The translations under genes were made by a program, and so were the position numbers. The notes below the pieces were generated by a model. The model was given only the letters and a program-made list of their open reading frames with translations. It did no database searches and was not told the origin of the DNA. From Verrucomicrobiales bacterium (GTDB lineage: Bacteria; Verrucomicrobiota; Verrucomicrobiia; Verrucomicrobiales; DEV007), in contig JAEUHH010000005.1 of NCBI GenBank assembly GCA_016795505.1, forward strand, positions 91,979 through 155,978: a stretch of 64,000 bases of DNA, read 5' to 3'. This document shows, in pieces, positions 3,455 to 45,623 of this stretch. Numbering within the stretch: the stretch's first letter is position 1; every line of letters begins with the position of its first letter.

Positions 3455-3476
3455 TGCCCCCGATGCGTCTGCCCGA

Positions 3477-3527
3477 TTCCGATCAGACCCTGTTGGATCG
3501 GAGATGATACCCTGTTTGATCGGAAAC
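3477..3527. repeat. dispersed GATC-rich palindromic element, copy 1 (intergenic between pabB-like and GT2 genes)
   Basis: The sequence is ttccgatcagaccctgttggatcggagatgataccctgtttgatcggaaac. It is built from copies of the module ACCCTGTTKGATCGGA and its reverse complement around a central GATCGGAGATG. Confidence 0.7.
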
Positions 3528-7562: not shown

Positions 7563-9016
7563 GCGGCCATCTGTCCCAGCCCAGAGGTCCGTTCGCCCGC
7601 CCGGTGGGCGTTTTTGCCGTGGCGGCGGCCGCCCTCGCCGCTTCCCTGGCCACGGCAGCGATGCTGCGCGACGAGCGTTTCGTATTTCTCGCGACCGGCC
7701 TGTGGGCGCTGGCCCTGATGCTGGTGCCCTACGCGCGCGCCGAGCGGCCGGGACTGTTCTCGGTGTGGTCCTTCGTCGTACTCACCGTGGGCATCGGGGT
7801 GACGGCCCGCGGGGTCTGCCTCACGCTCGGCTATCCCGAGGCCGGGCGGCTCGATGAGTTGTATTTCCGCGGACGGGAGGCGGCGTTTTTCTTCGAGCCG
7901 GCGCTGGCCCTGCTGACGGGATTGGGAATGCTCGTGCTGGGGCACGAATGGCGTGTCCGTCGTCCGGGCCCGGTGGACCTGGCTCCGGTATGTCCGGATC
8001 GACTGCGTCTCGTCTGTGTGGCGGTGCTGGTAGTTTCGGCGGCAGCTACCTGGCTTTACGTGTCCCGCACTGGCGGCTGGCAGGGCGGCGACTGGTCGGG
8101 CAAACGCACGCCCATCCCCGGCCTCGACGTGGCGGGCACAGGCTACCAGAGCCACGGGGGACTGCGCTTTGCCGCTTCGCTGGCGGGCTTTGGCCATGTG
8201 CTGGCTGTGGCGGGATGGTTTGCCGCCCCGGCAGGAAGGCGGATCGGTTGGGCCGTGCTGGCGGCCGCCTTGCTGCTCGTGGCGGTGGCGGTGCCTTTCC
8301 ATGCCAGCCTGCGCACGCCGCTGGTGCTGTTGCTGGTCCTGCCGGCCGCGATGGTCCATCTGGCGGGCCGGCGCATCCGCCCCGCAGCCCTCGCGGCGAC
8401 GGTGGTGGCGGCGCTGCTGGCGATCCAGGTGATGACGGTCCTGCGAAACTCGGGTAGCGACCGCGACGCCGCCATTGACCCGCCGACGCCGGCGGCGCTG
8501 TTTGATGCGGCCGTGCTGAACCGCAATCAGATCGAGCTGCCGAAAACCGCGCACCTCTATCACGCGGTGCCGCGGGAGCTGCCCGTCGCCTGGGGCGCCA
8601 CGGTGGCCCGCTGGGTGCTGGCGCCGATCCCGCGCAGCCTCTGGCCCGACAAGCCGGTGATCCAACCCGGTCCCATCGTCGGACAGACCCTGTACGATCA
8701 GCCGATCGCCGGGGTGCCGCCGTCGCTGGTGGGCGAGCTTTTTTGGAATTTCCACTGGCCGGGTGTGATCATCGGCGCCTTCCTGATCGGACTGGCTCTG
8801 CGGATGGTGGAGGCGGTCTTCCAACCGATCCGGGGCGGCGATCCGATGCGGGCGGCGCTCTTCGTGGCCGGACCCATGACGATGGGTTTCGAAATGGTCG
8901 GCGGCAGCATCGGGTCGGGCCTGTTTCGCGGATGCCTTCAGACAGCCGTCATGCTGGGCCTGCTGTGGCTGGCCCAGGATCTAAGCCGCGTTCGCCATTC
9001 CTCTGTCCCGAGATGA
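7559..9016 (+). CDS. O-antigen/oligosaccharide repeat-unit polymerase-like (Wzy-type) polytopic membrane protein
   Basis: It has about 10-12 predicted TM helices with a large periplasmic loop and no other motif, and it sits between glycosyltransferases in a polysaccharide cluster. There is an ATGA overlap with the upstream sulfotransferase (7559-7562). Confidence 0.5.
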   Translation: MSGHLSQPRGPFARPVGVFAVAAAALAASLATAAMLRDERFVFLATGLWALALMLVPYARAERPGLFSVWSFVVLTVGIGVTARGVCLTLGYPEAGRLDELYFRGREAAFFFEPALALLTGLGMLVLGHEWRVRRPGPVDLAPVCPDRLRLVCVAVLVVSAAATWLYVSRTGGWQGGDWSGKRTPIPGLDVAGTGYQSHGGLRFAASLAGFGHVLAVAGWFAAPAGRRIGWAVLAAALLLVAVAVPFHASLRTPLVLLLVLPAAMVHLAGRRIRPAALAATVVAALLAIQVMTVLRNSGSDRDAAIDPPTPAALFDAAVLNRNQIELPKTAHLYHAVPRELPVAWGATVARWVLAPIPRSLWPDKPVIQPGPIVGQTLYDQPIAGVPPSLVGELFWNFHWPGVIIGAFLIGLALRMVEAVFQPIRGGDPMRAALFVAGPMTMGFEMVGGSIGSGLFRGCLQTAVMLGLLWLAQDLSRVRHSSVPR

Positions 9017-18597: not shown

Positions 18598-19716
18598 ATG
18601 AAACCCACCCTCTATCTCGGCACCCGCAAGGGTCTCCTCTCCGTCGTTCGCGGCCCAGGCGGCTGGGAAATCGAACGAATGTCCTTTCTCGGCGTTCCTG
18701 TCCCCATGCTGCTGCCGGACGGGCGCGCTGGCACGCTCTACGCGGCGGTCGAGCACGGGCATTTCGGGTCGAAATTACACGCTTCGGTCGATGGCGGCGC
18801 GACGTGGGAGGAGCGGGCCTGCCCGGCTTTTCCTCCCAAGCCGGACGACTATCCGGACGTGTTGAATCCCATGAGTCAGATGCCGATTCCCTGGACGCTG
18901 AAGACCATCTGGTCTCTCGAAGCGGGTGCGGCGGATGGCGATCTCTGGTGCGGCACCATCCCTGGCGGATTGTTCCACTCGCGGGACCGCGGAGCCTCCT
19001 GGCGCCTGGTGGAGAGTCTTTGGGATCATCCCGGCCGGGGAAAATGGTTCGGCGGCGGCGCCGACTGGCCCGGCATTCACAGCATCCTCGTCGATCCGCG
19101 CGACCGGCGGCGGGTGCTGCTGGCGGTGAGTTGCGGCGGCGTGTGGGAATCGCGCGACGACGGCGCCACCTGGCACAACATCGGCGAGGGACTGCGGGCC
19201 GATTTCATGCCGCCCGACCAGGCGGGTGATCCGGGCATTCAGGACGCCCACCGCATCGCCTGGTCCCTCTCGGATCCCGACACGATCTGGATGCAGCACC
19301 ACAACGGCATTTTCGTCAGCCGCGATGGCGGCCGGCACTGGAGCGAGATCGAAAACGCCGCGCCTTCAGCCTTCGGCTTTGCCGTCGCGGTGCATCCCGG
19401 CGACCCGCAGACAGCGTGGTTCATCCCCGGCATCAAAGACGAATGCCGGGTCGCCTGCGATGGCGCGCTCTGCGTGACGCGGACCCGCGACGGCGGCGCC
19501 ACCTGGGAGGCGCTCCGCGAAGGTCTGCCCCAGCAGCACGCCTACCACTTGGTTTACCGTCACTGTCTCGATGTGACCGGCGACGGCCGGACTCTGGCCT
19601 TCGGCAGCACCACCGGCAGCGTTTGGATCAGCGAAGACGGCGGAGACTCCTGGCAACGCCTCAGCGCGGAACTGCCGCCGGTCTATTGCGTGCGATTCGG
19701 TCCGGAAAAGGCCTGA
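18598..19716 (+). CDS. BNR/Asp-box repeat beta-propeller protein (sialidase-like/glycosyl-hydrolase-like)
   Basis: Repeated S-x-D-x-G-x-T-W motifs are present (SVDGGATWEE, SRDRGASWRL, SRDDGATWHN, SRDGGRHWSE, TRDGGATWEA, SEDGGDSWQR). Confidence 0.65.
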   Translation: MKPTLYLGTRKGLLSVVRGPGGWEIERMSFLGVPVPMLLPDGRAGTLYAAVEHGHFGSKLHASVDGGATWEERACPAFPPKPDDYPDVLNPMSQMPIPWTLKTIWSLEAGAADGDLWCGTIPGGLFHSRDRGASWRLVESLWDHPGRGKWFGGGADWPGIHSILVDPRDRRRVLLAVSCGGVWESRDDGATWHNIGEGLRADFMPPDQAGDPGIQDAHRIAWSLSDPDTIWMQHHNGIFVSRDGGRHWSEIENAAPSAFGFAVAVHPGDPQTAWFIPGIKDECRVACDGALCVTRTRDGGATWEALREGLPQQHAYHLVYRHCLDVTGDGRTLAFGSTTGSVWISEDGGDSWQRLSAELPPVYCVRFGPEKA

Positions 19717-23823: not shown

Positions 23824-24543
23824 ATGAGCAAATCCCCCGACCGACTCGTCATCCTCACCGGAGCCGGCATCTCCGCCGAGTCCGGACTGCCCACCTTTCG
23901 AGGGGCCGACGGTCTCTGGGAGGGCCACCGGGTGGAGGATGTCGCCAGCCCCGTGGCCTTCGCGCGGGATCCGGAGTTGGTGCATCGGTTCTACAACCTC
24001 CGCCGCGCCGCTCTCCGCACCGTGGAGCCGAATGCCGCCCATCTCGCCCTCGCCCGGCTCGAGGCCGCCTGGCGTGGTAGTTTTCTGCTCGTCACCCAGA
24101 ATGTCGACGACCTCCACGACCGCGCCGGCAGCCGCCGCCTCCTCCACATGCACGGCGAACTGATCCGGGCGCGCTGCAAGGCCTGCCGACACGGTTGGGA
24201 ATGGCGGGATGATCTGAGCCCCGACAGCATCTGCCCGTCCTGTGGCAAATCGGGGCGCGTCCGGCCCGACATCGTCTGGTTCGGCGAGGAACCGCTTCAC
24301 CTCGGCGAGATCTTCGATGCCCTGTCCCGCGCCAGCCTGTTCATCGCCATCGGCACCTCGGGCCATGTCTATCCCGCGGCCGGCTTCGTCGATGTGGCCA
24401 GGGGAGCCGGAGCCCGTGCCATCGAGATCAATCTCGCCGACACCGCCGCCTCCGCCGCCTTTGACGAACGCCGCACCGGTCCCGCCACGGACCTGGTGCC
24501 TGCGTTGGTGGAGGAATTGCTCGCCGCTCAATCCGTCGGCTGA
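23824..24543 (+). CDS. cobB: NAD-dependent protein deacylase (Sir2/CobB sirtuin)
   Basis: ILTGAGISAESGLPTFRG, TQNVDDLH and the zinc-ribbon pattern CxxC...CPSCG, plus FGE, are canonical sirtuin motifs. Confidence 0.9.
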   Translation: MSKSPDRLVILTGAGISAESGLPTFRGADGLWEGHRVEDVASPVAFARDPELVHRFYNLRRAALRTVEPNAAHLALARLEAAWRGSFLLVTQNVDDLHDRAGSRRLLHMHGELIRARCKACRHGWEWRDDLSPDSICPSCGKSGRVRPDIVWFGEEPLHLGEIFDALSRASLFIAIGTSGHVYPAAGFVDVARGAGARAIEINLADTAASAAFDERRTGPATDLVPALVEELLAAQSVG

Positions 24544-27500
24544 TCCACCCCGGATTCCACGTCCACCGGCAGCCCCTGCGGCTTGCCTTTTACCCGTTTC
24601 CTCTTTGGCGCGGTCGCCGCTTCCTCACCGGCCTCCTCCCCTTCGCGCACCGGCACCACCTTGATCTCTACATTCACCGGGACCGCGCGCAGGTCGGCGA
24701 TGATCCGCTCCAGTTTCTCCACCGTCACATCGGCCAGGGTTGCGGGCTTCTCACGATGCTGGGCCGCGCGCGTCAGCACCCCTTCGATCCGGCCCAGCCC
24801 TTCGGAAAAGCCCGCCAGCGTGCCGATCACCCGGCCCACCGGGTCATTCTCGCCGGCTTGCGCGCCCATCAGCAGGTTCCGGCTGAACTTGCGCTTGATC
24901 TCCTCCCACCGCTCTGACTCGGCTTCGGTCAGCACGCCCTCCAATTCGCGGAACTTCAGCAGATTCGCCTCCGCACCCTTGGTCAGCGTCTGTGCCTCGT
25001 TCTCGTAATGGGCAAAAATCGCCGCCTCCACCTCGGCATCCGTCATCAGGGGCACGATGCGTTCGGCGATGCGGTTCATGTTGCGATACGAACCCTGCAG
25101 ACGGAAGGCCGGCTCGGTCCGATAGGCATCCTCCATCGCCGCGGAGCGGATGTATTCCCGATTCACCCGCAGGATCGTGTCGCGCACCCGCATCAGCTTC
25201 TTCATCGCCGACACGTATTCCTCCATTTCTTCCAGGCTGTGACTGCCCTCCAGGTCGATCCCCTCGCGCGAGCCGGTCTGGGCGATGCGCATCACGGCCA
25301 TCAGGTCGGCCGGATGCCGCGCCACTAGTCGCGCCAGCACCGCGTTCGATGTGGCGGCATTCTCAATATAGCTCGCCTCAAAATCGCCCGAGTGATCGCC
25401 CGCGATGTCGCCGAGGTTGTAGGTGTCGGCCCGGTTGGCCAGCATGTCGGGTATCTGGAACTTGCCACCACTCTCGGTGTAGGGGTTGCCCGCCATCACC
25501 ACGCAGACCTTGCGACCGCGGAGGTCATAGGTGCGCGGGCGACCGTTCCACACGCCCTCGATCTTCCGCTGCGCATCGCAGAGCGAGATGAACTTCTGCA
25601 AAAATTCGGGATGCGTGTGCTGAATGTCATCGACATAGAGCATGATGTTGTCGCCCATCTCCAGCGCGAGGTTCAGCTTGTGGATCTCCTCGCGCGCCCC
25701 GGCATTCGGCGCGTCGGCGGGGTCGAGAGAGGTCACCTCGTGGCCCAGCGCCGGACCGTTGATTTTCATGAAAGCCAGGCCGAGCCGGTTCGCCACGTAT
25801 TCCATCAGCGTCGTCTTGCCATAACCGGGCGGCGAAATGAGCAGCAGCATCCCCATCCGGTCCGTGCGGGTGTCGGCCCCGGCCGTGCCCATTTGTTTCG
25901 CCAGATTGTCGCCGATCAGAGGCAGGTACACCCGATCCAGCAGCCGGTTGCGGACAAAAGCCGGCATCACCTTCGGCTTGAACTCCTCCAGCCGCATCGC
26001 CGCGCGGCGCGACTCGATCAGCGCGACCTTTCCCGCCTCATAAGCCTCGAAGCGCGGCACCGTGAGCGCGCAGAAGCCGCGCAGACGGCGGGTGAACTCG
26101 TGATAGTCGAAAGCCAGCCGTCCGCCGTCGATCCGCGGGTGATCCCCGGCCAAACCGGAAAGCTCGGCCGTGAGCGCGACGTCATTCACCGCCAGTTGGC
26201 CCGTCTCCCCACGAATCAGGTGCGCCGCGGCCTCCAGCAGGCAGGCGCGGTTTCCGATCAAAGAGGGTCTGATCTCCGATGCAACAGGGTCTGATTGGAA
26301 TTCGCCACCCAGGGCCCCGCCGATCCAGTCGCAGGCCACCTGGAAGCGGGCCACGGGGTCGGCGGCCAGCTCGGTCATCGCGGCGGCAAAGGTCTTGTCG
26401 AGCCGGCGCTCCGTGAGCGCATTCCGGAACTGTTCCATCAGCTCCGCTGCGCGTGGGGAAATCGTGAACGGCGTCGGGTCGATCGACTCGAAGAACAAAT
26501 ACTCGGCGGCGAGCGTGGCATCAACCTCCCCAAAGCCCGGGCACTCGCGCCGGAAAGCCTCCAGGCCGCGCGAGAGTTCCGCCACGTAGCTGCTTTGGAC
26601 TCCGGCCGCCTCGGGAAAGCCGCGGCGCATCTGCCCAAAGGCGGACAACTGGCGCGTCAGGCGAACCTTTTCCGGCGACGCCGGATCCCACGTGGCGTGC
26701 CACAGCAAAGCCAGCGCACGCTCGTCGGGTCCGTAGCGGAGCAGGCCGGCCTCGCGGTGGATGCGGCCCAGTACGCTGAGAATCGCCACCGCATCGCGGT
26801 CGTGAACGCCCTTGGTGTAGCCCTCGCGATACCGCGGCGCCATGAACTCGCGCACGGCTTCGAGTTTTCCTTCGTCATTCGCAGCGAGCCACGCGTCGAG
26901 CGTTTCGAGGTCGAGCAACAGTCGCCAGGCCAGATATTCCGCCCGATAGACGGTGCGATCCTCGGACACGACCTCCTGGCTCCACACCTCGCGGGTGGCG
27001 AGGAAGGCCTCGTCCGCGATCGGCTCGAAGAAATTGGTGCCGGCGAGATGCAGGCACAGCGTGTCGTCCTTCGGCACGATGGACAGCTCCAACTCCTGCC
27101 GGTTCACGGAGAAGCGGTGATTGCCGAGCTGGATCACGTCGCGTCCATCGACAAACAGTTCCTGCCGGTCCTTGAGTTGCCGCACGGCATCCTCCCGCAG
27201 CGTCTTGAGCCGGGTCTGGATCTCGTCGGCTTTCACCGGATCGCCCATCGCGGTGAGTTGGGCGATGGTGTCGCGCACCTTCTCGACCATCAGATCGCCG
27301 GCGAGGTAGCCGGCGATCCCGGCGGCGGAGTCAAAGCCGTCGAGTCGGTGTTTGATCGTCGTCAGGAGACGGTCGGCCGACTTCGCGAGCGAGGCCGTGC
27401 GGCGGTTGCGGGCCTCCACCAATTGGAGCTTGCGGGCTTCGAAGGCATTGTAAACCTCGTCGCGTTTCTCGACGAGCTGGGCCACGTACTCGTCGAACTC

Positions 27501-29687
27501 GGCGAAGCGACCCTCCAACTCTTCGAGCTGGACCATCGTCTTCGACAGGTATTCGTCGCACTTCGCGGGCGTGTCGCAGAGATCGAGGTAGTTGACGACC
27601 GCCTGATTGAGCAGCTTCAGTTGTGCGCCAAACTGCGCCACTCCCTCGGCCCGGGCGAGGTCTTTGCGCCGGTTTTTCAGGGCGGAACGCACCCGGTTCA
27701 GGATGGCGTAGATGCCGGAGATGTCCTCGATGATCTGGGTGCTCTGGGTGGCATCCGCGATCTTCAGGCCGCCGACGATGTCGATCAGCATTTCCAGTTC
27801 CGCCCCGCCGCGGCTGAGTTCCTCGTCGATGGCGTCGGCTTCGGCGACCTTGGCGACGGCAGGGATGCGCGCCTCCTGGTCGGTGATCTGGCTTCGGTAG
27901 GGATCGAGCGCCTCGGGCCGGAGGAGAAACTCCACGCAGCGCTGCGAGACGGCGCCGGTGGCGTCGATGACATCGTTTTCCATCGCCTCGATCGCCGCGG
28001 CGTCAGCGTAGCGGAGTTCGCGCAGGGCGATCACCTCGCCGCGCACCTCCCGGAGCCCGGCGAGGCTGTGAACAAAGCCAAGGATGTCGTCCGGCCGCGT
28101 GTTGCGGCCCGCGGTGGCCAGCTTGCGGGCCTTGTCGCCGACCCGCTTCATGTCTGACGCGGTGGACTGACGCAGGCGACGCACTTTGTCAAACTCGGCA
28201 ATGGCCGCCTGGGCGGCGCCACGGATCTCGCTGAGCGCGGCCCTCAGATCGAAGGTCTCCGCGTGGCCGATCCAGAAATAGGCGTCGCAGATGTCGCCGG
28301 CGCGCTTCGCGAGATCGACGTAGAGATCGGCGTAGGTGTCGTCTTTGCCCAGCAGGTTGAGCACCTCGTGGCACTCGGCCATGCAGCGGACGATGGCGGC
28401 GTTGCCGATCTTGTTGAGATGACTGTCGCTCCGGCCGGGGGCGCGGAATTCACCCTCCATGTAGGGCGTGCGCCAGATCTGGAGGGCGTGGTGCTTTTGC
28501 GGCTCGGCTTCGGCGCGGAAATGGATCAGCCCGCCGTCGGGGAACACGGTGTAGCCGTGGCAGACGATCGGTGTGTCCACGGACTGCTCGATGATGTGAT
28601 AGGGCATCAGGGCATTGACGCCGGTGACGCGGTTGTGGAAGGCGTATAGATAGTCCTCACCGTTCGGCGACGCGATGCGGCGCTCGAAGATCATGCCGGT
28701 GAGGCCGTTGTCGAAGCGCTTGGTTTCGCCGGTCTGGAGATGGTAGCCGTCGGCGAAGATGATGCCCTGGTCGCCCGGCAGCAGCACGCAGGAATCGGCG
28801 ATGGAATCGATGCGGGTGACGGAGCGAACCTTTTCGTTGAAGACAAGGTAACGAAATGCCTTTTCCTGATAGGGCTGGATCTTCAGCAGGATGAGGTTCC
28901 CGACGATGGCGTAGAAGATGGTGGCATCGTCCAGCTTCTGGTCGCGGTGCTCGACCGGCTCGGCGTGAATGCCCTCGCCGGTGGCGGTGTTGTCCTCGAC
29001 CTTGATCGTCAGGTCGCCGCCGACCGTCTCCACAAAGACGCGGTCCTCGATCGATATGTGCGGGTGCACCCCGTCGCGGTGCATCGACCGGTTCACGCGG
29101 GTCCACTCGAACTCGACCGGGGGAGGGAAGACGTATTCGTGGTCGAAACGATTGCCGAGATAGTCGATACCGGCATCAGTGTCGCGCCATTTGAAGCACT
29201 TGATGTCATCGACGGTCTTCCCAGCCCGGAAAGCCATGTAGAGATGCGGGCCGATGCGGCGGAACTTGAGGAACGACGCCTCGCGGTAGTACTTGTAGAG
29301 GTAGGCGAAATCCTCCGCGAAGCTGCCCTGGAGGAGAAAGTCCAGGCTGGTCTCTGAGAACGTGTGGTTTTCCGGATGATACTGGTAGGCGGCAAAGACG
29401 TCGGCCGGCGCCGTGGTAGTCTTCAGGCCGAACTGGACATTGAAGCCGAAGAGGAATCGATTTCCCCCGATGGCCACCAGGTCGCGTGGCGTGCAGGCGT
29501 GGGCGGTGGAGACCCGCTCGGTGGCGAGCAGAGTCGGCTCGACGGCGCCGAAAACGGCCTGCCGTTCGGCATTGAGCCTGGCGAGCCGGGCACGAAGGTC
29601 GGATCCGTGCGTGGCGAGCCGCGACCGGATGATCTCGTAGGCACCCGCTTCGAGTTGGGCGGCCGGTGCTGTGGGGTCAGTGGGCAT
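24528..29687 (-). CDS. very large (1719 aa) AAA+ ATPase-domain protein of unknown function (DUF3686-like architecture?)
   Basis: It is a single uninterrupted ORF. An AAA+ core lies near residues 1250-1400 (Walker A LLLISPPGYGKTTLM; Walker B IMLYVDDIQH; sensor VCVVMAGNPYTE). It has a long N-terminal region and an acidic C-terminal tail with a KRKRVKGK patch. It overlaps the cobB stop convergently by 16 bp. It contains an in-frame copy of the dispersed palindromic repeat (see findings). Confidence 0.75.
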   Translation of the reverse strand: MPTDPTAPAAQLEAGAYEIIRSRLATHGSDLRARLARLNAERQAVFGAVEPTLLATERVSTAHACTPRDLVAIGGNRFLFGFNVQFGLKTTTAPADVFAAYQYHPENHTFSETSLDFLLQGSFAEDFAYLYKYYREASFLKFRRIGPHLYMAFRAGKTVDDIKCFKWRDTDAGIDYLGNRFDHEYVFPPPVEFEWTRVNRSMHRDGVHPHISIEDRVFVETVGGDLTIKVEDNTATGEGIHAEPVEHRDQKLDDATIFYAIVGNLILLKIQPYQEKAFRYLVFNEKVRSVTRIDSIADSCVLLPGDQGIIFADGYHLQTGETKRFDNGLTGMIFERRIASPNGEDYLYAFHNRVTGVNALMPYHIIEQSVDTPIVCHGYTVFPDGGLIHFRAEAEPQKHHALQIWRTPYMEGEFRAPGRSDSHLNKIGNAAIVRCMAECHEVLNLLGKDDTYADLYVDLAKRAGDICDAYFWIGHAETFDLRAALSEIRGAAQAAIAEFDKVRRLRQSTASDMKRVGDKARKLATAGRNTRPDDILGFVHSLAGLREVRGEVIALRELRYADAAAIEAMENDVIDATGAVSQRCVEFLLRPEALDPYRSQITDQEARIPAVAKVAEADAIDEELSRGGAELEMLIDIVGGLKIADATQSTQIIEDISGIYAILNRVRSALKNRRKDLARAEGVAQFGAQLKLLNQAVVNYLDLCDTPAKCDEYLSKTMVQLEELEGRFAEFDEYVAQLVEKRDEVYNAFEARKLQLVEARNRRTASLAKSADRLLTTIKHRLDGFDSAAGIAGYLAGDLMVEKVRDTIAQLTAMGDPVKADEIQTRLKTLREDAVRQLKDRQELFVDGRDVIQLGNHRFSVNRQELELSIVPKDDTLCLHLAGTNFFEPIADEAFLATREVWSQEVVSEDRTVYRAEYLAWRLLLDLETLDAWLAANDEGKLEAVREFMAPRYREGYTKGVHDRDAVAILSVLGRIHREAGLLRYGPDERALALLWHATWDPASPEKVRLTRQLSAFGQMRRGFPEAAGVQSSYVAELSRGLEAFRRECPGFGEVDATLAAEYLFFESIDPTPFTISPRAAELMEQFRNALTERRLDKTFAAAMTELAADPVARFQVACDWIGGALGGEFQSDPVASEIRPSLIGNRACLLEAAAHLIRGETGQLAVNDVALTAELSGLAGDHPRIDGGRLAFDYHEFTRRLRGFCALTVPRFEAYEAGKVALIESRRAAMRLEEFKPKVMPAFVRNRLLDRVYLPLIGDNLAKQMGTAGADTRTDRMGMLLLISPPGYGKTTLMEYVANRLGLAFMKINGPALGHEVTSLDPADAPNAGAREEIHKLNLALEMGDNIMLYVDDIQHTHPEFLQKFISLCDAQRKIEGVWNGRPRTYDLRGRKVCVVMAGNPYTESGGKFQIPDMLANRADTYNLGDIAGDHSGDFEASYIENAATSNAVLARLVARHPADLMAVMRIAQTGSREGIDLEGSHSLEEMEEYVSAMKKLMRVRDTILRVNREYIRSAAMEDAYRTEPAFRLQGSYRNMNRIAERIVPLMTDAEVEAAIFAHYENEAQTLTKGAEANLLKFRELEGVLTEAESERWEEIKRKFSRNLLMGAQAGENDPVGRVIGTLAGFSEGLGRIEGVLTRAAQHREKPATLADVTVEKLERIIADLRAVPVNVEIKVVPVREGEEAGEEAATAPKRKRVKGKPQGLPVDVESGVDQPTD
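26252..26301 (-). repeat. dispersed GATC-rich palindromic element, copy 2 (intragenic, in-frame within the AAA+ ATPase ORF)
   Basis: The sequence is tttccgatcaaagagggtctgatctccgatgcaacagggtctgattgg. Its reverse complement has the same modular layout as copy 1. It is translated as ...SEIRPSLIGNRACL... inside the 1719-aa ORF without breaking the frame. Confidence 0.7.
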
Positions 29688-30588
29688 CTGATGAGAGGAG
29701 TGGCAGCGGCGGAGCCTCCCTATTCAGGGTGGGCGGGACGCCTGCGGTGCCAGTGAGTTTTCGGACCGGTATCTCAATCGGGCGAGGCGTAACACACTGG
29801 GACCGCAGGCGTCCCGCCTGCTCCATTTCGTCGGGTGTATTTCGGTGGGGATGCCCAATTTCGAAGCGATCGCGATCATTCTGGGCGGGCGGGACGCCCG
29901 CGGTCCCGGTGGGGTGTCGGACCGATGTCAATTCGGGTGGCTCCTGGAAAGTACCGTCCGGCATCACCACTTTCGATAATTCACGACGGCCTTTGCTGGC
30001 ACTGCTACACAGCCAGTCCTCGGGAGTTTCACACAAGCCAGCGGAAACAGGATTCCGATGAATGTATGCCACTACTGATTCGAAATGGGCAAAGTCGCGA
30101 ACGAAGCGATCCCTATAATCAGGCCACCAAAATGGCGGCTCAAAAGCCACCCATTTGGCCGCCTCGTGCGCGGTGTACGACTTCCAGCAGTGAACCAACT
30201 GTGTCAGCGTGAAGCCAGGGATTGTCTCGAAAACACAATGCACGTGGTTCGGCATAATCACCCAGGCCAACATACGGTAGCGGACACCATCAAAATGAAG
30301 CAGGGCATTTTCGACCATCTCGGCAACATCGGGATTTCGCAGGTGGCAGGCGCCAATGCCTTTGTCGAGCAGGGATTCCAGGCGTTTCGACTGGCGGGCT
30401 CGAATTGGTTCGTTCTCCAATTGTTCACGAAGGTTGGCCGGAATGGAGTCTCCCAATCGGAATGTAAGGCTTTGAACCAGATCAGCCCGGTCAAAGTGAG
30501 GCAGGTATCCACGTGAATACCAGCCTCGATGCGGTCCCTGACCCAAAGAGTCACCAACACCATTATTCTGTCGGTACTCTGGTCTCAT
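29677..30588 (-). CDS. REP-associated tyrosine transposase (RAYT; IS200/IS605-like Y1 HuH transposase)
   Basis: It begins with the RAYT N-terminal motif RGYLPHFD, then has the HuH motif MPNHVHCVF and the catalytic-Tyr block VAYIHRNPVSAGL. The catalytic domain ends near ...WLCSSASKGRRE. The remaining roughly 85 codons of the ORF are read-through of REP repeats (PTGTAGVPPAQN... twice). The ORF overlaps the start of the AAA+ gene by 11 bp. Confidence 0.75.
   Translation of the reverse strand: MRPEYRQNNGVGDSLGQGPHRGWYSRGYLPHFDRADLVQSLTFRLGDSIPANLREQLENEPIRARQSKRLESLLDKGIGACHLRNPDVAEMVENALLHFDGVRYRMLAWVIMPNHVHCVFETIPGFTLTQLVHCWKSYTAHEAAKWVAFEPPFWWPDYRDRFVRDFAHFESVVAYIHRNPVSAGLCETPEDWLCSSASKGRRELSKVVMPDGTFQEPPELTSVRHPTGTAGVPPAQNDRDRFEIGHPHRNTPDEMEQAGRLRSQCVTPRPIEIPVRKLTGTAGVPPTLNREAPPLPLLSSDAH
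29731..29912. repeat. REP cluster (family GGGACCGCAGGCGTCCCGCCTGC and its inverse) on the 3' side of the RAYT gene
   Basis: The cluster has three units: gggcgggacgcctgcggtgcc at 29731, gggaccgcaggcgtcccgcctgc at 29799-29821, and gcgggcgggacgcccgcggtcccggtgg at 29884-29911. They are arranged as inverted pairs (REPIN-like). Confidence 0.7.
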
Positions 30589-30622: not shown

Positions 30623-30890
30623 GGGACCGCAGGCGTCCCGCCTGCCCCGACATGCCGGGGTAGCAGAATCGCGTGCCGTCTCCGATACCGCCCTTGCCAT
30701 CCGTAGCGGGCGAGACGCCCGCGGTCCCGGTGGGTTTTCCGAACGTTGAGTGGGTTCGCAGAGGCGCAACAAACCGGGACCGCAGGCGTTCCGCCTGCCC
30801 CAACATGCCGGGGTAGCAGAATCGCGTGGCGACTCTGACACAGTCCTTGCCATCCGTAGCGGGCGAGACGCCCGCGGTCCCGGTGGGTCT
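30623..30890. repeat. tandem pair of REP doublets (about 153-bp period) immediately upstream of the RAYT gene
   Basis: Unit 1 runs about 30623-30733 (gggaccgcaggcgtcccgcctgc ... gcgggcgagacgcccgcggtcccggtgg). Unit 2 runs about 30776-30888 with the same sequence and a few substitutions. Each unit is a long imperfect palindrome. Confidence 0.75.
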
Positions 30891-33031: not shown

Positions 33032-33062
33032 ACAGTTGGCAGGTTAGGTTGAAAGGATGGCT

Positions 33063-33982: not shown

Positions 33983-34477
33983 ATGGAATCCCACGAAATC
34001 CTGAAACGCGCCTTCGACAGCCCGCAGACCAGTCCGAAGCAGATCGCGGCTGAGATGGGCGTGTCCCTGTCTCTGGTGTACAAATGGGCTCAGCCCGACG
34101 GCGACGGCCCCGGGACGGGCTCGGGAAGCAAGAATCCCCTCGACCGGGTGGCGGAATTGCTCGACCTCACCCACGACACCGCCATCGTCGAGTGGCTCTG
34201 CCAACGGGCCAACGGGTATTTCGTGCGCAATCCCAAGAGTTCCTGCCAAAAGGGCTACGAAGTGGTGCCGGCGACGCACGAGATCGTGCAGCAGTTCGCC
34301 GGCCTGCTCTCGGTGATCAGCCAGGCGGCGATCGACAACTCCATCAGCGATGCCGAGTCCGCCCAGATCCGCAAAGTCTGGGACGGCCTGAAGTCGTTCT
34401 GCGAGGGTTTCGTGCGCTGCTGCGAAGAGGGCGACTTTCAACCCATCCAGAAGGAGCTGATCCGGAAGCGCGGATAG
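33983..34477 (+). CDS. helix-turn-helix regulatory protein (phage CII-like/YdaS-like N-terminal HTH), hypothetical
   Basis: SPKQIAAEMGVSLSLVYKWAQP is an HTH. The Cys-rich C-terminal half is of unknown function. It is preceded by a 230-bp intergenic region with several short inverted and direct repeats (gaccgacggtc..gaccgaccggtc; aacgatt x3). Confidence 0.5.
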   Translation: MESHEILKRAFDSPQTSPKQIAAEMGVSLSLVYKWAQPDGDGPGTGSGSKNPLDRVAELLDLTHDTAIVEWLCQRANGYFVRNPKSSCQKGYEVVPATHEIVQQFAGLLSVISQAAIDNSISDAESAQIRKVWDGLKSFCEGFVRCCEEGDFQPIQKELIRKRG

Positions 34478-34493: not shown

Positions 34494-34545
34494 TTTCCGA
34501 TGCAACAGGGTCTGTCCGGCGATGCTACCCTGTTTGATCGGAAAC
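34494..34545. repeat. dispersed GATC-rich palindromic element, copy 3 (between convergent genes)
   Basis: The sequence is tttccgatgcaacagggtctgtccggcgatgctaccctgtttgatcggaaac, a near-perfect inverted repeat (TTTCCGAT..AACAGGGT / ACCCTGTTTGATCGGAAA). Confidence 0.7.
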
Positions 34546-39921: not shown

Positions 39922-41079
39922 ATGTCTGGCCGCAGTCCCGCCATTCCGCGGGTCGCCCTGCTCATCGAGACGACCCGCAGCTACACCCGCGACATCCTCG
40001 CCGGGGTGCGCCGCTACGTCGATGAGTTCGGCCCGTGGTCCACATACATCGAGCTGCGCGCACCCGATTCAGCACCGCCGCCCTGGCTGATGAACTGGGA
40101 CGGCGATGGCATCCTGACGCGGACCTTCACCCCGGAGATGAACCGCGCCGTGGCAGCCACCGGTCTGCCTGCCGTCGAACTGCGCTCCACCAGTCTGCCG
40201 CACGACCGGCCCTTCGTCGGCGTGGACAACGGTCTCATCGGCCAGTCCGTCGCCGAGCACTTTCTCAATCGCGGTTACCGGCAGTTTGCCGTCTATGGGC
40301 TGACCAGCGAGGCCTTCTTCATCGAGCGGATCGACAATTTCGTCAGCCGGCTGCGGCGCGGCGGCTTTCCCTGCGTCACCCTGCCGGCAAATGATTCCGA
40401 CCACCCCGCGGACTGGGAGCGGCATCAGGCCCGGCTCATCGCGGCTCTCCGCGGCCTGCCCAAACCCGTGGGAATCTTCGCGGCCAACGACCCCCTCGGC
40501 GTCCACCTGCTCGATGCCTGCCTGCGGGCCGGGCTCGCCGTGCCCGAGGAGATCGCCGTGGTCGGCTGCGAGGATGACGAGACTCTCTGCACGCTGGCTA
40601 CGCCTCCGCTGACCAGCGTGCGCCTCGATGGCCGGCGGGTCGGCTACGAGGCGGCGCGCCTGCTCGACGGGCTGATGCGGGGCGGTCAGCGTCCGGCGAC
40701 GCCGCTGTTGCTGCCGCCGCGCGGCATCGTGACCCGCCAGTCATCCGACGACCTGGTCATCACCGATCCGCTGGTGGCGCATTGCTGCCGCCTCATCCGG
40801 GAAAAATTTCCCAGCGGACTGGGTGTCGCCGATCTCTGTGCGGCGGTGAACGCCTCCCGCAGCACCCTCGAGCGCCGCATGAAGGCCGCCATCGGCCGCA
40901 CTCCGAAGGAGGAGATCCAGCGGCTCCGCTTCCGCGAGGTCGAGCGTCTGCTGCGCGAGTCGGACCTCACCCTCGAAGCCATCGCCGAAAAGACCGGCTT
41001 CGTCAGCGCCAGCCATTTCCAGAATGCGTTCCGGGAGCGCCACGGCATCACGCCCGGCCGGTTCCGTCGCGGCGGCTGA
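39922..41079 (+). CDS. XylR-like transcriptional regulator (periplasmic-binding-protein-like sensor domain + AraC-family HTH)
   Basis: The N-terminal LacI/PBP-like fold (RVALLIETTRSYTRDILAGVRRY...GVDNGLIGQ) is followed by a C-terminal AraC HTH (STLERRMKAAIGRTPKEEIQRLRFREVERLL...SHFQNAFRERHGITPGRFRR). It is divergent from the DJ-1/isomerase/cytochrome/dehydrogenase operon. Confidence 0.85.
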   Translation: MSGRSPAIPRVALLIETTRSYTRDILAGVRRYVDEFGPWSTYIELRAPDSAPPPWLMNWDGDGILTRTFTPEMNRAVAATGLPAVELRSTSLPHDRPFVGVDNGLIGQSVAEHFLNRGYRQFAVYGLTSEAFFIERIDNFVSRLRRGGFPCVTLPANDSDHPADWERHQARLIAALRGLPKPVGIFAANDPLGVHLLDACLRAGLAVPEEIAVVGCEDDETLCTLATPPLTSVRLDGRRVGYEAARLLDGLMRGGQRPATPLLLPPRGIVTRQSSDDLVITDPLVAHCCRLIREKFPSGLGVADLCAAVNASRSTLERRMKAAIGRTPKEEIQRLRFREVERLLRESDLTLEAIAEKTGFVSASHFQNAFRERHGITPGRFRRGG

Positions 41080-41123
41080 TCAAACAGGGTAGCATCTCCG
41101 ATCCAACCCTGTTTGATCGGAAA
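41078..41123. repeat. dispersed GATC-rich palindromic element, copy 4 (starts within the stop codon of the XylR/AraC-like gene; convergent gene pair)
   Basis: The sequence is gatcaaacagggtagcatctccgatccaaccctgtttgatcggaaa. The central part is in the opposite orientation to copy 5. Confidence 0.7.
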
Positions 41124-41131: not shown

Positions 41132-43708
41132 TCAGGCGCCCGGCTCCGCGGACAGGAAAGCCAGCAGGTCGCGCAGCTCGCGGTCGGTCAGCAGGGCGGG
41201 CAGGCCGGGTGGCATCAGCGAGGTCTTCAGCTCGGTGCGCTCGACGATTTCCTCCGGCTTGAAGGAGCGTTCCCGGCCAGTGATGTCGCGGAATACCTCG
41301 GTGCTGGAAGATCGCAGCAGGATGCCGAGAAATCCGGTGCCATCGGCGAGGGTCAGTTGGGTGGGGTAATACTGCGGGGCGACCTCGCGATGGGGCTCGA
41401 GGAGGGATCGGAGCAGGCCCTCGCGATCGCTCTGTCTGCCGATCAGGCTGAGATCGGGGCCGACCACGACGCCGCGGCCACTGTGCCGGTGACAGGTGCC
41501 GCACAGGGCGATCCGGGAGTGGAAAAAGAGGCGTCGGCCCGCGGCTAGATCGGCGGGGCCGGGCACGGCGTCGAGACGTCTCAGCCAGCCGGCGGTGTCG
41601 TCGAGGCCGGGCCGCCCGGCCTGGATGGACGAGGCGTCGGTGACGGCGGCAACGAGCGGGGTGGCTTCGGGATGGGCTTCGGCCACCGGTTGCAGCGCCG
41701 CCTTTGACGACTCGTCGAGTGGGACGAGCCGCAGGGCGCGCAGGGCTTCGTCCCGGAGGCCCGCGTCTGTGTCAGTCTTGGTGGCGAGGCGGATGAGCAG
41801 CGCCTGGTGCTCCGGCACAGTCGATCCGGCCAGTCCGACGACGGCTTCGGTGCGGGCGGCGGCGGGGCGCTGCGCATCGGAGGCCACCTCGGCCAGGACG
41901 GCCCGGGCGTCGTCGGCTTGGCGTGCCGCGAGGGTGCGGATGGCCTCCAGCGCGAGATCGGGGTCGCCCGCATTGAGCAGTTCGCGCAGCAGAGGCACGG
42001 TGATGCGGGCGTGGGTCGCCGGAGCCAGCCTCAGGGCATAGCCCCGGAGCCGGGCCGGGGTCTGCGGATCGGCGATGCGGTCGGCGAGCACCTCGGGATT
42101 CGTCACGCCGGCCCCGGGATCGCCCCGGAGGGTGTTCCACGCGGCGAGGCTGGCTTCGAACAGTCGGTAGTCGAGCGCGGGATCGCGGAGCAGGGCTTCG
42201 ACCTCTTTTTGAAAATCGGTCAGTACGGCGTCGGCGATCCAACGGAGGCATTCGAAGCGGATTTCGGGATCGGGATCGTCCCAGAGGGCGCGCACCCATC
42301 GGCCATTGGTCAAATCGACGCGTCGCAGGGCCACCAGGGCCCAGACCCGGTCGGCGGCGGGCAGGGCGCGGACGGATTCGGGCGTCCACGAGGCGCTGCG
42401 CTTTGCCAAGGCGGTTAGGGCGGCGTCGGCAAGATAGCGATCGTTGCCGCGGACGAGCGCAAAGAGCCGGGCCTCGTCGAGGTCGGCTTTTCCGCTCCGC
42501 AGATCGCGGGCGAGCCGGCTGGAATCGGTCTCGGGAGAGCGCTCCCGCTGGATCCATTCCGCCGCGGCCCGGTCGATCTCAAGCTTCCAGAGCCGGCCGC
42601 GGGCGTGAATGGGATAGGAACTGAATACCCAGTCCGTGAGGTAGAATGAGCCGTCCGGCCCTGCCGCCAGACCGACGGGACGGAAGTGGTCGCCGCCGCT
42701 GACGAGGGCGTGCCGCTCGGAGCGAAAGCCGGCGCCGTCGCGGGTGAGGGGGTAGTAATCGACCCGGTGATCGCTCCACGAGGGAATCAGCAGGCCGCCG
42801 CCGAGTTCCACCACCGCGCAGGGGCCCTCTCCGCTGGGATGGACCATGCCGAGCGTGCCGCGCAGTTCGCCGTTCCACGCCACGAAGGGATGCACCGCCG
42901 AGCTGCCATAGACCCACTGAAAGCCATAGTCGGCGCCTTCGACCACGTTAAGCAGGCGGCACGGCGGCCGGCTGCCGGGGTCGTTTTCGGCTGCGAAGAT
43001 CTCGCCATCGTCGCGGACGAAGAGGCCGAAGGGATTCCAGAACCCCTGGGCAATGCGGCGCATCTCCCGGCCGTCGGGGGTGCAGCGGAAGACGCCGCCT
43101 TCGCCGCGCCCCTTTTCCTCAGAGCCGTCGCGGGCGGAAAGCACCCAATCCTTCCCAAAATTCTCACCCAGCGAGAAGATGAGCGCCCCGTCGGGATGCC
43201 AGGCCATGCCGCTCAAGCCGTTGTGCGGGTAGTCGGCCACGGTGTCGAGGGCGGCGAGCGTCTCCTCGACATCGCCTTTCCCGTCGCCATCGCTGTCGCG
43301 GACGCGGAGGATGCGGTCGCGCTCGGCGAGGTAGACCCAGCCGTCGGGACCGAGGATGAGCTGCATGGTGGCCTCGGTCCGGTTGTAGAAAACGCGGCGG
43401 TTTTTGCCGTCCTTGTCAAAGACGAGGATCTCGTCGTGCTCGGGCCCCTGATAGCCCTCGGGACGGAAATGGGTGTGGCAGGCCACCAGCCAGACGTCGC
43501 CGCGGTCGTCGACATCGATGCCGGTGGGCGTGACGAGGTCGGGATGCTCGGCCAGGAGCGTCAGCTTTACGCCGGGCAGCCGCGTCTCGATCTTGGGCGA
43601 GAGGTCGTCGGGCACCACCGGTGCCTTGGGCGGCGGGGCGCCGGGAGGCGCGGCGATGGCGGCCAGCGGTAGGAGGAGAAAAAGCGGCAAAGATATGGCG
43701 ATTCTCAT
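41132..43708 (-). CDS. PVC-type haem-binding protein: sorbosone-dehydrogenase-like beta-propeller + HEAT repeats + C-terminal cytochrome c domain
   Basis: It has a signal peptide, DSDGDGKGD loops, HEAT-like Ala/Leu repeats and a C-terminal CGTCH haem-binding site. The start is trimmed to the ATG at 43708. Confidence 0.7.
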   Translation of the reverse strand: MRIAISLPLFLLLPLAAIAAPPGAPPPKAPVVPDDLSPKIETRLPGVKLTLLAEHPDLVTPTGIDVDDRGDVWLVACHTHFRPEGYQGPEHDEILVFDKDGKNRRVFYNRTEATMQLILGPDGWVYLAERDRILRVRDSDGDGKGDVEETLAALDTVADYPHNGLSGMAWHPDGALIFSLGENFGKDWVLSARDGSEEKGRGEGGVFRCTPDGREMRRIAQGFWNPFGLFVRDDGEIFAAENDPGSRPPCRLLNVVEGADYGFQWVYGSSAVHPFVAWNGELRGTLGMVHPSGEGPCAVVELGGGLLIPSWSDHRVDYYPLTRDGAGFRSERHALVSGGDHFRPVGLAAGPDGSFYLTDWVFSSYPIHARGRLWKLEIDRAAAEWIQRERSPETDSSRLARDLRSGKADLDEARLFALVRGNDRYLADAALTALAKRSASWTPESVRALPAADRVWALVALRRVDLTNGRWVRALWDDPDPEIRFECLRWIADAVLTDFQKEVEALLRDPALDYRLFEASLAAWNTLRGDPGAGVTNPEVLADRIADPQTPARLRGYALRLAPATHARITVPLLRELLNAGDPDLALEAIRTLAARQADDARAVLAEVASDAQRPAAARTEAVVGLAGSTVPEHQALLIRLATKTDTDAGLRDEALRALRLVPLDESSKAALQPVAEAHPEATPLVAAVTDASSIQAGRPGLDDTAGWLRRLDAVPGPADLAAGRRLFFHSRIALCGTCHRHSGRGVVVGPDLSLIGRQSDREGLLRSLLEPHREVAPQYYPTQLTLADGTGFLGILLRSSSTEVFRDITGRERSFKPEEIVERTELKTSLMPPGLPALLTDRELRDLLAFLSAEPGA

Positions 43709-43733
43709 CTCAATGGGAATGCTTCGGAATTGA

Positions 43734-45571: not shown

Positions 45572-45623
45572 TTTCCGATCAAACAGGGTTGGATCGGAGA
45601 TGAGACAGGGTCTGATCGGAAAG
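45572..45623. repeat. dispersed GATC-rich palindromic element, copy 5 (between convergent DUF4058 and DUF1501 genes)
   Basis: The sequence is tttccgatcaaacagggttggatcggagatgagacagggtctgatcggaaag. Confidence 0.7.

What the first reader, a model, noticed from the sequence alone, without database searches (positions are those of the whole stretch)
26252..26301. Palindromic repeat copy inserted in-frame inside the 1719-aa AAA+ ATPase gene
Copy 2 of the dispersed element lies about 1,130 codons into the uninterrupted 24528..29687 reverse-strand ORF. It is translated as ...QSDPVASEIRPSLIGNRACLLEAAAH... with no stop or frameshift. In-frame coding insertions of palindromic elements are known for Rickettsia RPEs and for some Neisseria/enterobacterial MITEs, and are otherwise rare. 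If real, the element contributes a short peptide segment upstream of the ATPase core.
Basis: partly seen in the sequence, partly recalled or inferred. Interest (0 to 1): 0.75.

Follow-up and report, generated by a model that had tools for sequence, protein, structure and literature searches.

The report
Palindromic repeat translated inside ATPase gene
A 51-base copy of a dispersed palindromic repeat sits in frame inside a large ATPase gene and is read as about 20 extra amino acids in a loop; related bacteria carry other such repeats in the same loop, but in-frame repeats of this kind are already known in this phylum.

Summary
Window 26251-26301 is one of six full copies of a 51-nt repeat, here called REP-A. 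Its layout is TTTCC, a 19-nt module, 3 nt, a second 19-nt module, GGAAA. The other five copies lie just downstream of genes.

This copy lies inside the 1719-aa DUF3686/AAA+ gene (24528-29687, minus strand). It is translated without a stop as (E)FQSDPVASEIRPSLIGN(RA), residues 1129-1148. In an AlphaFold model this segment is a low-confidence loop between two confident helices, about 140 residues before Walker A.

A 94%-identical protein from an independent assembly has the same insert, with the peptide a consensus REP-A would encode. So it is not an assembly artefact, and it predates that split.

The 120 orthologues are collinear across the site, which is a length-hypervariable linker. Of ten other orthologues read as DNA, eight carry repeat-derived sequence in that linker. 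Three carry copies of the repeats flanking a REP-associated tyrosine transposase (RAYT) gene directly upstream of the ATPase.

I conclude it is a real in-frame insertion of a REP-like element in a permissive, repeatedly hit loop. In-frame REPs are documented, most abundantly in the verrucomicrobium Opitutus terrae. This is therefore a new member of a known kind, and the recurrently hit loop is the moderately interesting part.

The parts
26251..26301 (-). REP-A copy 2, the finding. Layout: TTTCC, module 1 (26256-26274), TCC, module 2 (26278-26296), GGAAT. Both modules have the same orientation. It is read on the minus strand as FQSDPVASEIRPSLIGN.
   Evidence: PWM dimer 52.7 bits against a null maximum of 15.4; 58 nt at 90% to copy 1.
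26244..26303 (-). The 60-nt in-frame segment, codons 1129-1148 (EFQSDPVASEIRPSLIGNRA). This is the element plus its GC-rich outer stem. Removing it leaves DWIGGALGG|CLLEAAAH, a short loop like those of relatives.
   Evidence: P0155 has DFRSDPVASEIIPCLIGNRP at the same place.
24528..29687 (-). Host gene: 1719-aa DUF3686 + DUF7902 + AAA+ protein, annotated 'DNA repair ATPase'.
3476..3526 (.). REP-A copy 1 (direct type). It lies 21 nt after the stop of a chorismate-binding enzyme gene (2117..3454+).
34494..34544 (.). REP-A copy 3 (inverted type, hairpin z = -4.5). It lies 16 nt after the stop of the Phage_CP76-like gene 33983..34477(+).
41073..41123 (.). REP-A copy 4 (inverted type). It fills the gap between the convergent genes 39922..41079(+) and 41132..43768(-).
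45572..45622 (.). REP-A copy 5 (direct type). It lies 22 nt after the stop of the DUF1501 gene 45645..47057(-).
56852..56902 (.). REP-A copy 6 (inverted type, hairpin -44 kcal/mol, z = -8.7). It lies 31 nt after the stop of the UbiA gene 56934..57893(-).
29677..30588 (-). RAYT (REP-associated tyrosine transposase) gene directly upstream of the ATPase. The conserved core is 29944-30588. The ORF tail runs through three REP-B copies and overlaps the ATPase start codon by 11 nt.
   Evidence: Y1_Tnp, 27.8 bits, cut-off 23; NF047646, 7e-20, 71.4 bits, cut-off 80; HUH and Tyr motifs conserved; GC 0.54 against 0.65.
29732..29907 (.). Three REP-B copies (GGGACCGCRGGCGTCYCGCC) in alternating orientation, downstream of the RAYT core.
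   Evidence: (families D3, D4).
30623..30881 (.). Four REP-B copies in alternating orientation upstream of the RAYT. Two of them carry the GTAG tag.
   Evidence: (family D2).

Best explanation
A copy of a dispersed, REP-like, two-module palindromic element (REP-A) has been inserted into the coding sequence of the DUF3686 AAA+ ATPase gene. The core is 51 nt, and about 57-60 nt counting its GC-rich outer stem.

Shown: the insert is a multiple of three and free of stops in the frame used. The gene therefore stays intact and the element is translated as about 19-20 extra residues. They sit in a loop between two helices, about 140 residues before the Walker A motif.

Shown: the insertion is older than the split from a 94%-identical relative. 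That relative's copy encodes exactly what a consensus element would encode. The window's copy differs from it at three residues (R to Q, I to R, C to S), each one base away from the consensus, so it is drifting.

Inferred: the peptide is a tolerated passenger with no function of its own. The genic copy is of the 'direct' module type, which folds no better than shuffled sequence, so it should not stall transcription or translation.

Shown: the same loop in orthologues holds REP-A-like dimers, GTAG-type REP-B, a REP-C doublet or a fourth repeat. In three lineages these match, at 93-100%, the repeats that flank the RAYT gene just upstream of the ATPase.

Inferred: the loop is both permissive and a preferred landing or conversion site for hairpin repeats. 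These are probably moved as single-stranded DNA by HUH/Y1 (RAYT-type) transposases, or copied by template switching between hairpins. Which enzyme moves REP-A is not known. The RAYT in this window is flanked by REP-B, not REP-A.
For: Family and copy. Six full copies; 58 nt at 90% to copy 1, including flanking bases; PWM 52.7 bits against a null maximum of 15.4.

Real single gene.

Hypervariable linker with indels exactly here.

Independent assembly with the same insert, carrying the peptide a consensus element would encode. Divergence there is 6 of 22 residues against 5.9% overall, p = 0.0014.

Loop position. The pLDDT is 59 over model residues 231-240, between helices 212-226 and 242-260, whose surrounding 10-residue blocks average pLDDT 88-96.

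Weak hairpin for this copy and strong ones for the inverted copies.

Elements are stop-free in 3-4 of 6 frames.

Recurrent occupation of the loop: the REP-A PWM gives the top hit of the whole locus at the linker in L001 (31.0), L006 (17.0) and L078 (35.7). The linker matches RAYT flanks in L004 (27/28 and 26/28), L002 (92-96%) and L077 (25/25 and 34/36). In L003 the match is 17/17 to a REP-B pair at the position the RAYT occupies elsewhere; L003 has no RAYT. L080's linker matches an intergenic repeat over 52 nt at 85%.

Unbiased check: comparing each whole gene with the rest of its locus, all matches in five loci fall in codons about 1129-1186 and nowhere else in about 5.2 kb.

RAYT at the same position in five loci.

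Precedent: PMC3733652.
Against: No orthologue closer than 94% lacks the insert, so there is no before-and-after pair and the exact insertion boundaries are inferred.

REP-A lacks the GTAG or CGTC tag of classical REPs. It is not seen next to any RAYT in the sequence available. No target-site duplication is visible. Its mobility mechanism is therefore unproven.

REP-A-like sequence occupies the same register and reading frame in several orthologues. That also fits one old insertion followed by decay and conversion, rather than repeated insertion.

A REP-A-like sequence at 8659-8699 lies inside a conserved protein motif. This shows that high PWM scores can occur in native coding DNA.

Neutrality of the peptide is inferred from position and divergence only. 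Solvent exposure was not computed.
Confidence: 0.82

Rival explanations
1. There was one ancient insertion, not a hot spot. A REP-A element entered the loop once in the ancestor of this clade. The present diversity would then reflect in-place decay, deletions, module inversion by hairpin template switching, and gene conversion from dispersed or RAYT-flanking copies. On this view repeated independent insertion did not occur.
For: REP-A-like dimers in the window, L001, L005, L006, L002 and L078 sit in the same register and reading frame relative to the conserved YLxE codons. The linker copies in L001 and L002 resemble their own genome's variant of the family, which conversion would produce.
Against: At least three unrelated repeat families besides REP-A occupy the loop: REP-B, REP-C and the L080 repeat. 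Conversion cannot create them without prior homology. Sister lineages P0002 and P0003 carry different families. P0008 lacks what its sisters P0010 and P0012 have. The window copy is 90% identical to a local intergenic copy, while the host genes are only about 70-74% identical at protein level.
Confidence: 0.25
2. The element has been put to use. The repeat inside the gene would act at the DNA or RNA level, for example as a binding site for a repeat-binding protein, an RNase or processing site, or a pause site. Alternatively, the variable peptide would tune the ATPase, so the loop's turnover would be adaptive.
For: The loop is occupied by repeats in most lineages examined. Di Nocera et al. speculate that REPs in repair genes may modify activity. 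RAYT-ATPase adjacency is conserved in five loci.
Against: The encoded peptides are unrelated between lineages and vary from 0 to more than 50 residues. The window peptide diverges about 4.6 times faster than the rest of the protein, 27% against 5.9%. The mRNA-strand fold is no better than shuffles. There is no promoter or terminator signal and no Rfam family.
Confidence: 0.1
3. The similarity is coincidental or native. The linker would merely resemble the repeat by chance or through codon constraints, as at 8659-8699, and nothing was inserted.
For: The site at 8659-8699 shows that a conserved peptide can encode REP-A-like DNA.
Against: For copy 2 the match covers the full 51 nt plus flanking bases at 90%. 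The peptide is absent from all orthologues below 94% identity. The linker length differs by 9-15 residues from the nearest relatives.
Confidence: 0.02
4. It is an assembly artefact, or really two genes: a chimeric join at a repeat, or two ORFs separated by a terminator-like repeat.
For: The source is a metagenome-assembled genome, and repeats can break or mis-join assemblies.
Against: Both flanks are collinear with 120 full-length orthologues. An independent assembly has the same structure. The repeat is shorter than a sequencing read. No terminator or promoter is present, and GC3 is uniform across the ORF.
Confidence: 0.02

Closest known systems
Intragenic GTAG/CGTC REPs (Di Nocera, De Gregorio and Rocco 2013, PMC3733652), most numerous in Opitutus terrae (Verrucomicrobia)
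   Same: These are short palindromic repeats that are mainly extragenic and lie at gene 3' ends. A minority sit in frame inside known genes, often as dimers encoding 15-30 residues and often in DNA-repair or helicase genes. That paper notes different REPs at about the same site in recB of two Xanthomonas species. REP-B here encodes TGTAGVPP or RAGRP, much like O. terrae GTAG-19 (GTGVPPV, and SRAGRPCH in a dimer).
   Different: REP-A has no GTAG or CGTC tag. It is built of two 19-nt modules whose 7-nt core (ACCCTGT or ACAGGGT) can point either way, and it is not seen beside a RAYT. The repeated colonisation of one loop by several families, matched to the neighbouring RAYT's own repeats, was not described there.
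Rickettsia palindromic elements (RPE; Ogata et al. 2000, as cited in PMC3733652 refs 13 and 14)
   Same: A palindromic repeat is inserted in frame in genes that remain functional, adding a short peptide segment.
   Different: RPEs are longer (RPE-1 is about 100-150 bp, from my own knowledge), are restricted to Rickettsia, and are unrelated in sequence. They sit at many different sites rather than in one recurrent loop.
REPIN/RAYT systems (Bertels and Rainey 2011, PMC3116915; Nunvar et al. 2010, PMC2817692)
   Same: The units are doublets of short palindromic sequences. A single-copy RAYT is flanked by its own repeats, inheritance is vertical, and variants are lineage-specific. The L004 linker insert looks like the RAYT unit's two ends joined, which is a REPIN-like derivative.
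   Different: Membership of REP-A is not shown, because no cognate RAYT was found. REP-A doublets are much shorter (51 nt) than Pseudomonas REPINs, and half of them are direct rather than inverted doublets.
Bacterial MITEs that occur in frame (for example Correia and ERIC/IRU elements; from my own knowledge and PMC3184786)
   Same: REP-A has terminal inverted repeats (TTTCCGATC / GATCGGAAA), is non-coding and dispersed, and can be read through as coding sequence.
   Different: REP-A is shorter than typical MITEs (70-300 bp). No target-site duplication was seen and no parent insertion sequence with the same ends was found.

Membership tests
REP / REPIN (RAYT-mobilised) - tested for REP-A | Short imperfect palindromic units, often paired as doublets. 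| tested here: met
   Two 19-nt modules lie 22 nt apart between TTTCC and GGAAA. The inverted doublets fold strongly (z from -4.0 to -8.7) and the direct ones fold weakly.
REP / REPIN (RAYT-mobilised) - tested for REP-A | Multi-copy and dispersed, mainly extragenic, close to gene 3' ends between convergent or same-direction genes. | tested here: met
   There are six full copies in 64 kb. Five are intergenic and 0-31 nt from a stop codon. L034's copy also follows a stop codon.
REP / REPIN (RAYT-mobilised) - tested for REP-A | A conserved GTAG (or CGTC) tetranucleotide tag at one end of the stem-loop. | tested here: not met
   No conserved GTAG or CGTC is present. GTAG appears by chance in only two modules.
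REP / REPIN (RAYT-mobilised) - tested for REP-A | A cognate RAYT gene flanked by the same repeat. | tested here: not met
   The only RAYT in the window (29677-30588) is flanked by REP-B, not REP-A. The rest of the genome could not be searched.
GTAG-type REP with REPtron - tested for REP-B | A GC-rich stem-loop with a GTAG tag, in alternating orientation, flanking a RAYT gene. | tested here: met
   Seven copies flank the RAYT in alternating orientation, and two carry GTAG (the others have GTGG or GCAG). The RAYT hits are Pfam Y1_Tnp above cut-off and NF047646 at 7e-20, which is just below its cut-off in the window but above it in L001.
MITE | Terminal inverted repeats plus a target-site duplication, derived from an IS with the same ends. 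| tested here: inconclusive
   Terminal inverted repeats are present (TTTCCGATC / GATCGGAAA). No duplication is visible in the flanks. No parent IS was found in the sequence held.
Rickettsia palindromic elements (RPE) | Membership of the RPE sequence families of Rickettsia. | tested here: not met
   The source is a Verrucomicrobiales MAG. There is no Rfam or other match. The resemblance is in behaviour only.
In-frame coding insertion (behavioural class) | The host ORF is intact and homologous on both sides; the insert is absent or different in orthologues; and the position is structurally permissive. | tested here: met

The most novel reading that the evidence does not exclude
The inter-helix loop of this ATPase may be a specific, repeatedly used landing site for repeats mobilised by the RAYT encoded immediately upstream. 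The clearest case is L004: the loop holds the RAYT unit's left and right terminal repeats joined together (27/28 and 26/28 identical), 3.4 kb from the donor. L002 and L077 show the same pattern with a different RAYT lineage and repeat family. If this reflects RAYT-driven local transposition, these loci are natural donor-target pairs. They could be used to work out how RAYTs create and move REP doublets, which has not been observed directly in vivo.
Probability: 0.35. Interest if true: 0.65.

Novelty: new member of a known kind. Interest (0 to 1): 0.48.

Why it matters
The finding itself is a clean, verified example of a palindromic repeat living inside a protein-coding gene, in a phylum where this is already documented. 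As such it mainly matters for annotation. The gene is intact, and the odd 20 residues are repeat-derived rather than functional signal.

The wider pattern is more useful. One permissive loop has been occupied in different lineages by at least four repeat families. In several lineages these are the families flanking the neighbouring REP-associated transposase. That gives matched donor and target sequences for studying how such repeats spread. It also shows how mobile hairpin repeats generate length and sequence variation in protein loops.

Tried and rejected
Only L034 carried a true element. No genome-wide census was therefore possible.
- A strict pattern in metagenome contigs found one locus (L079). 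This variant of the family is rare in JGI metagenomes.
- The last protein search, using a 201-residue fragment centred on the linker to find fragments from close relatives, returned nothing, not even the source protein. The 94% relative P0155 was found through the listing of cluster members instead.
- The source protein is not on record in the look-up of encoding contigs, so no further DNA of the source genome could be fetched.
- The following gave nothing at or near the element: Rfam, PADLOC on the ATPase and its neighbours, the promoter/terminator scan, the PDB sequence search and the PDB fold search. Only the generic AAA+ core matched in the last two.
- No literature was found on DUF3686.
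- I considered that REP-A could be a Dam/GATC cluster or an IHF-type binding site. I did not pursue this, as there is no consensus match by eye and no means of testing it here.
- I considered that 'SLGA/ALGG' at the start of the linker is ancestral. In L002 and L003 it is encoded by REP-B. For the window this remains unresolved.
Full report
**1. The observation**

The sequence at 26249-26300 is unique as an exact string. It belongs to a family of six copies in the window. In register, each copy reads TTTCC, a 19-nt module, 3 nt, a second 19-nt module, GGAAA. A module is GAT-nnn-core-nnn-ATC. The 7-nt core is either ACCCTGT or its reverse complement ACAGGGT.

The two modules point the same way ('direct') in copies 1, 2 and 5, and in L034. 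They point in opposite ways ('inverted', a long hairpin) in copies 3, 4 and 6.

I built a position weight matrix from the 12 modules of the other copies, leaving copy 2 out. It scores copy 2 at 52.7 bits. The maximum over 518,012 positions of unrelated genomes was 15.4. Copy 2 is 90% identical over 58 nt to copy 1, and the match includes bases outside the core.

**2. The host gene**

ORF 24528..29687(-) encodes 1719 aa with DUF3686 (E = 1.3e-177), DUF7902 and an AAA+ core. Its GC3 is 0.84, typical of genes in this 65% GC genome. It has 120 or more full-length homologues in Verrucomicrobiales. The source protein is MBL9150985.1, from a Verrucomicrobiales MAG.

The element is read on the minus strand as GAA TTC CAA TCA GAC CCT GTT GCA TCG GAG ATC AGA CCC TCT TTG ATC GGA AAC CGC GCC. 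This gives E1129-A1148. No promoter-like or terminator-like site lies at the element, and no Rfam family matches it.

The other five full copies are intergenic and 0-31 nt from the stop codon of a Pfam-supported gene. This is the usual position for REP-type repeats (PMC3733652).

**3. Is it an insertion?**

In an alignment of 120 homologues, the site falls in a length-hypervariable linker between the conserved DWIxG and (Y)LxEAAxH motifs. The nearest sequenced orthologues (70-74% identity) have 5-11 residues there, where the window has 20. Removing 26244-26303 leaves DWIGGALGG|CLLEAAAH, a short loop of the usual kind.

A 94%-identical protein from an independent JGI/IMG assembly (P0155) reads DWIGGALGG-DFRSDPVASEIIPCLIGNR-PYLLEAAAH. 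That peptide is what a consensus REP-A would encode: TTC CGA TCA GAC CCT GTT GCA TCG GAG ATC ATA CCC TGT TTG ATC GGA AAC. The relative also keeps the conserved Tyr.

The insert is therefore not an assembly artefact, and it predates the split of these two relatives. The window's copy has since moved one base away from the consensus at each of three codons. In the 22 residues around the element the two proteins differ at 6 positions, against 5.9% overall (p = 0.0014). This indicates relaxed constraint on the peptide.

**4. Structural position**

I made an AlphaFold2 model of residues 900-1719 with a 74-sequence alignment (mean pLDDT 79.5). It places the element-encoded residues (model 231-247) between helix 212-226 and helix 242-260. 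The pLDDT is 59 over residues 231-240, while the surrounding 10-residue blocks average 88-96. This is a loop about 140 residues before the Walker A motif. I did not compute solvent exposure.

As mRNA, this copy folds no better than shuffled sequence (-19.2 kcal/mol, z = -0.2). The inverted-type intergenic copies fold at z = -4.0 to -8.7. Family members are stop-free in 3-4 of the 6 frames. A tolerated in-frame copy is therefore not improbable.

**5. The same loop in orthologues**

I read the linker DNA of ten other orthologues.

The REP-A matrix gives the best hit of the entire locus, on both strands, exactly at the linker in three of them:
- L001 (31.0 bits)
- L006 (17.0 bits)
- L078 (35.7 bits; an inverted-type palindrome whose TGT core replaces the conserved Tyr with Cys)

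It gives the second-best hit of the locus at the linker in L002 (4.7 bits) and L005 (-1.1 bits). On their own these two are not significant locus-wide. These relatives also carry their own intergenic variants of the family (L001 12755, L002 59, L004 3175, L078 4541).

I then compared each linker with the rest of its own locus:
- L004: the linker consists of two repeats, 27/28 and 26/28 identical to those immediately upstream and downstream of the adjacent RAYT gene. In effect the RAYT unit's two ends are joined.
- L002: the linker is REP-B, then a REP-A-like dimer, then an inverted REP-B. The REP-B parts are 92-96% identical to the RAYT flanks.
- L077: REP-B in the linker is 25/25 and 34/36 identical to the RAYT flanks.
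- L003: 17/17 to a REP-B pair at the position where the RAYT sits elsewhere; L003 itself has no RAYT.
- L080: 52 nt at 85% to an intergenic repeat of yet another family.
- L081: nothing detectable.

Finally I ran an unbiased comparison of each whole ATPase gene with the rest of its locus. In five loci every significant match falls in codons about 1129-1186, and none elsewhere in about 5.2 kb. An approximate neighbour-joining tree shows sister lineages with different occupants.

The loop is thus a recurrent sink for hairpin repeats. Whether REP-A entered once or several times cannot be settled with the DNA available.

**6. The neighbouring RAYT**

Directly upstream of the ATPase, ORF 29677..30588(-) is a REP-associated tyrosine transposase. 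The evidence is Pfam Y1_Tnp at 27.8 bits (cut-off 23) and NCBIfam NF047646 at 7e-20, which at 71.4 bits is just under its cut-off of 80. The HUH and Tyr motifs are conserved.

Seven REP-B copies (GGGACCGCRGGCGTCYCGCC) flank it in alternating orientation, and two carry GTAG. No REP-B copy occurs elsewhere in the window. The RAYT core has GC 0.54 and GC3 0.56, against 0.65 and 0.84 for the neighbouring ATPase.

A RAYT sits at the same position in L001 (84.3 bits, above the cut-off), L002, L004 and L077. It is absent in L003, L005, L006 and L081. L080 has a more distant Y1 gene there.

The window's own linker carries REP-A, not REP-B. Proximity to the RAYT therefore cannot be the only reason the loop is hit.

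**7. Comparison with what is known**

Di Nocera et al. 2013 (PMC3733652) describe REPs inside genes in several species. The highest number is in Opitutus terrae (Verrucomicrobia). They are often dimers encoding 15-30 residues, and often lie in repair or helicase genes. The authors note different REPs at about the same site in recB of two Xanthomonas species.

Their supplementary table lists O. terrae GTAG-19 peptides such as GTGVPPV, and a GTAG-19 dimer containing SRAGRPCH. These resemble the REP-B translations seen here: TGTAGVPP in the RAYT tail, and RAGRPRSR in P0010 and P0012.

The phenomenon is therefore known, and known in this phylum. REP-A itself fails two defining REP features: it has no GTAG or CGTC tag, and no cognate RAYT was seen. 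It shows no target-site duplication either. I file it as REP-like in behaviour, not as a proven REP or MITE.

**8. Verdict**

The feature is a new member of a known kind.

What goes beyond the known is the repeated colonisation of one loop by several repeat families. These include near-identical copies of the adjacent RAYT's own flanking repeats. That would be a useful natural system if it reflects RAYT-driven local transposition. I put that at about 0.35, since conversion or survivorship in a permissive loop are alternatives.

One observation is unexplained. A REP-A-like dimer at 8659-8699 (32.1 bits) lies inside a Wzy-like gene, but it encodes a peptide conserved without indel in 21 homologues. 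Only 0.5% of synonymous recodings of that peptide score as high.

Noticed in passing
window 29677-30588 (-), with 29732-29907 and 30623-30881: A RAYT gene is flanked by seven alternating GTAG-type repeats (REP-B), a classic 'REPtron'. It is wedged between a flotillin-like gene and the ATPase. Its GC (0.54) and GC3 (0.56) are much lower than those of its neighbours.
   Followed up: yes
window 29677-29943 (-): The RAYT ORF continues for about 90 codons beyond the conserved core, straight through three REP-B copies (translated as ...TGTAGVPPA...). It overlaps the ATPase start codon by 11 nt. This is either a repeat-encoded C-terminal tail or an ORF extended by loss of the original stop codon.
   Followed up: partly
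window 8659-8699 (+), inside ORF 7514..9016: A REP-A-like two-module sequence (PWM 32.1 bits) lies inside a Wzy-like membrane protein gene. It encodes VIQPGPIVGQTLYDQ, which is conserved with no indel in 21 homologues down to 38% identity. Only 0.5% of synonymous recodings score as high. This could be coincidence, conversion of synonymous sites, or the origin of the family.
   Followed up: partly
L004 6736-6763, 7461-7488 and 10924-10984: In this relative the ATPase loop contains the left and right terminal repeats of the adjacent RAYT unit joined together (27/28 and 26/28 identical). The outer ends form a 14-bp inverted repeat, GGAGCGCGACGATC / GATCGTCGCGCTCC. It looks like a deletion derivative of the RAYT unit.
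   Followed up: yes
L002 7881-8000: The linker has a nested arrangement: REP-B, then a REP-A-like dimer with one module flipped, then an inverted REP-B. The two REP-B units bracket the older-looking REP-A-like sequence.
   Followed up: partly
window 23824-24543 (+): A SIR2-family gene (Pfam 1.1e-44) converges on the ATPase and overlaps its 3' end by 16 nt. The relatives have a different downstream gene at this position.
   Followed up: no
window 30971-34477 and related loci L002, L004-L006, L077, L080: There is a conserved gene neighbourhood: a Phage_CP76-like regulator (divergent), a YqiJ-like protein, a 670-690-aa flotillin-like protein, an optional RAYT, and the DUF3686 ATPase. PADLOC finds no defence-system match. 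The function of the cluster is unknown.
   Followed up: partly
window 58027-58098 (+): A tRNA gene, the only Rfam match in the window.
   Followed up: no
window 19153-19675 (+): Three diverged 43-nt direct repeats lie inside ORF 18598..19716. They encode the DGGxTW motifs of BNR/sortilin-type repeats, so this is ordinary protein-repeat structure.
   Followed up: no
L082 (Logan SRR28981381_14456): This 19.7-kb contig comes from a relative whose Wzy-like protein is 96% identical to the window's. It is collinear with window positions of about 6.5-19 kb. If collinearity continues, it would end close to the ATPase linker, which may be an assembly break at the repeat. The remaining 7 kb could not be fetched.
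   Followed up: no
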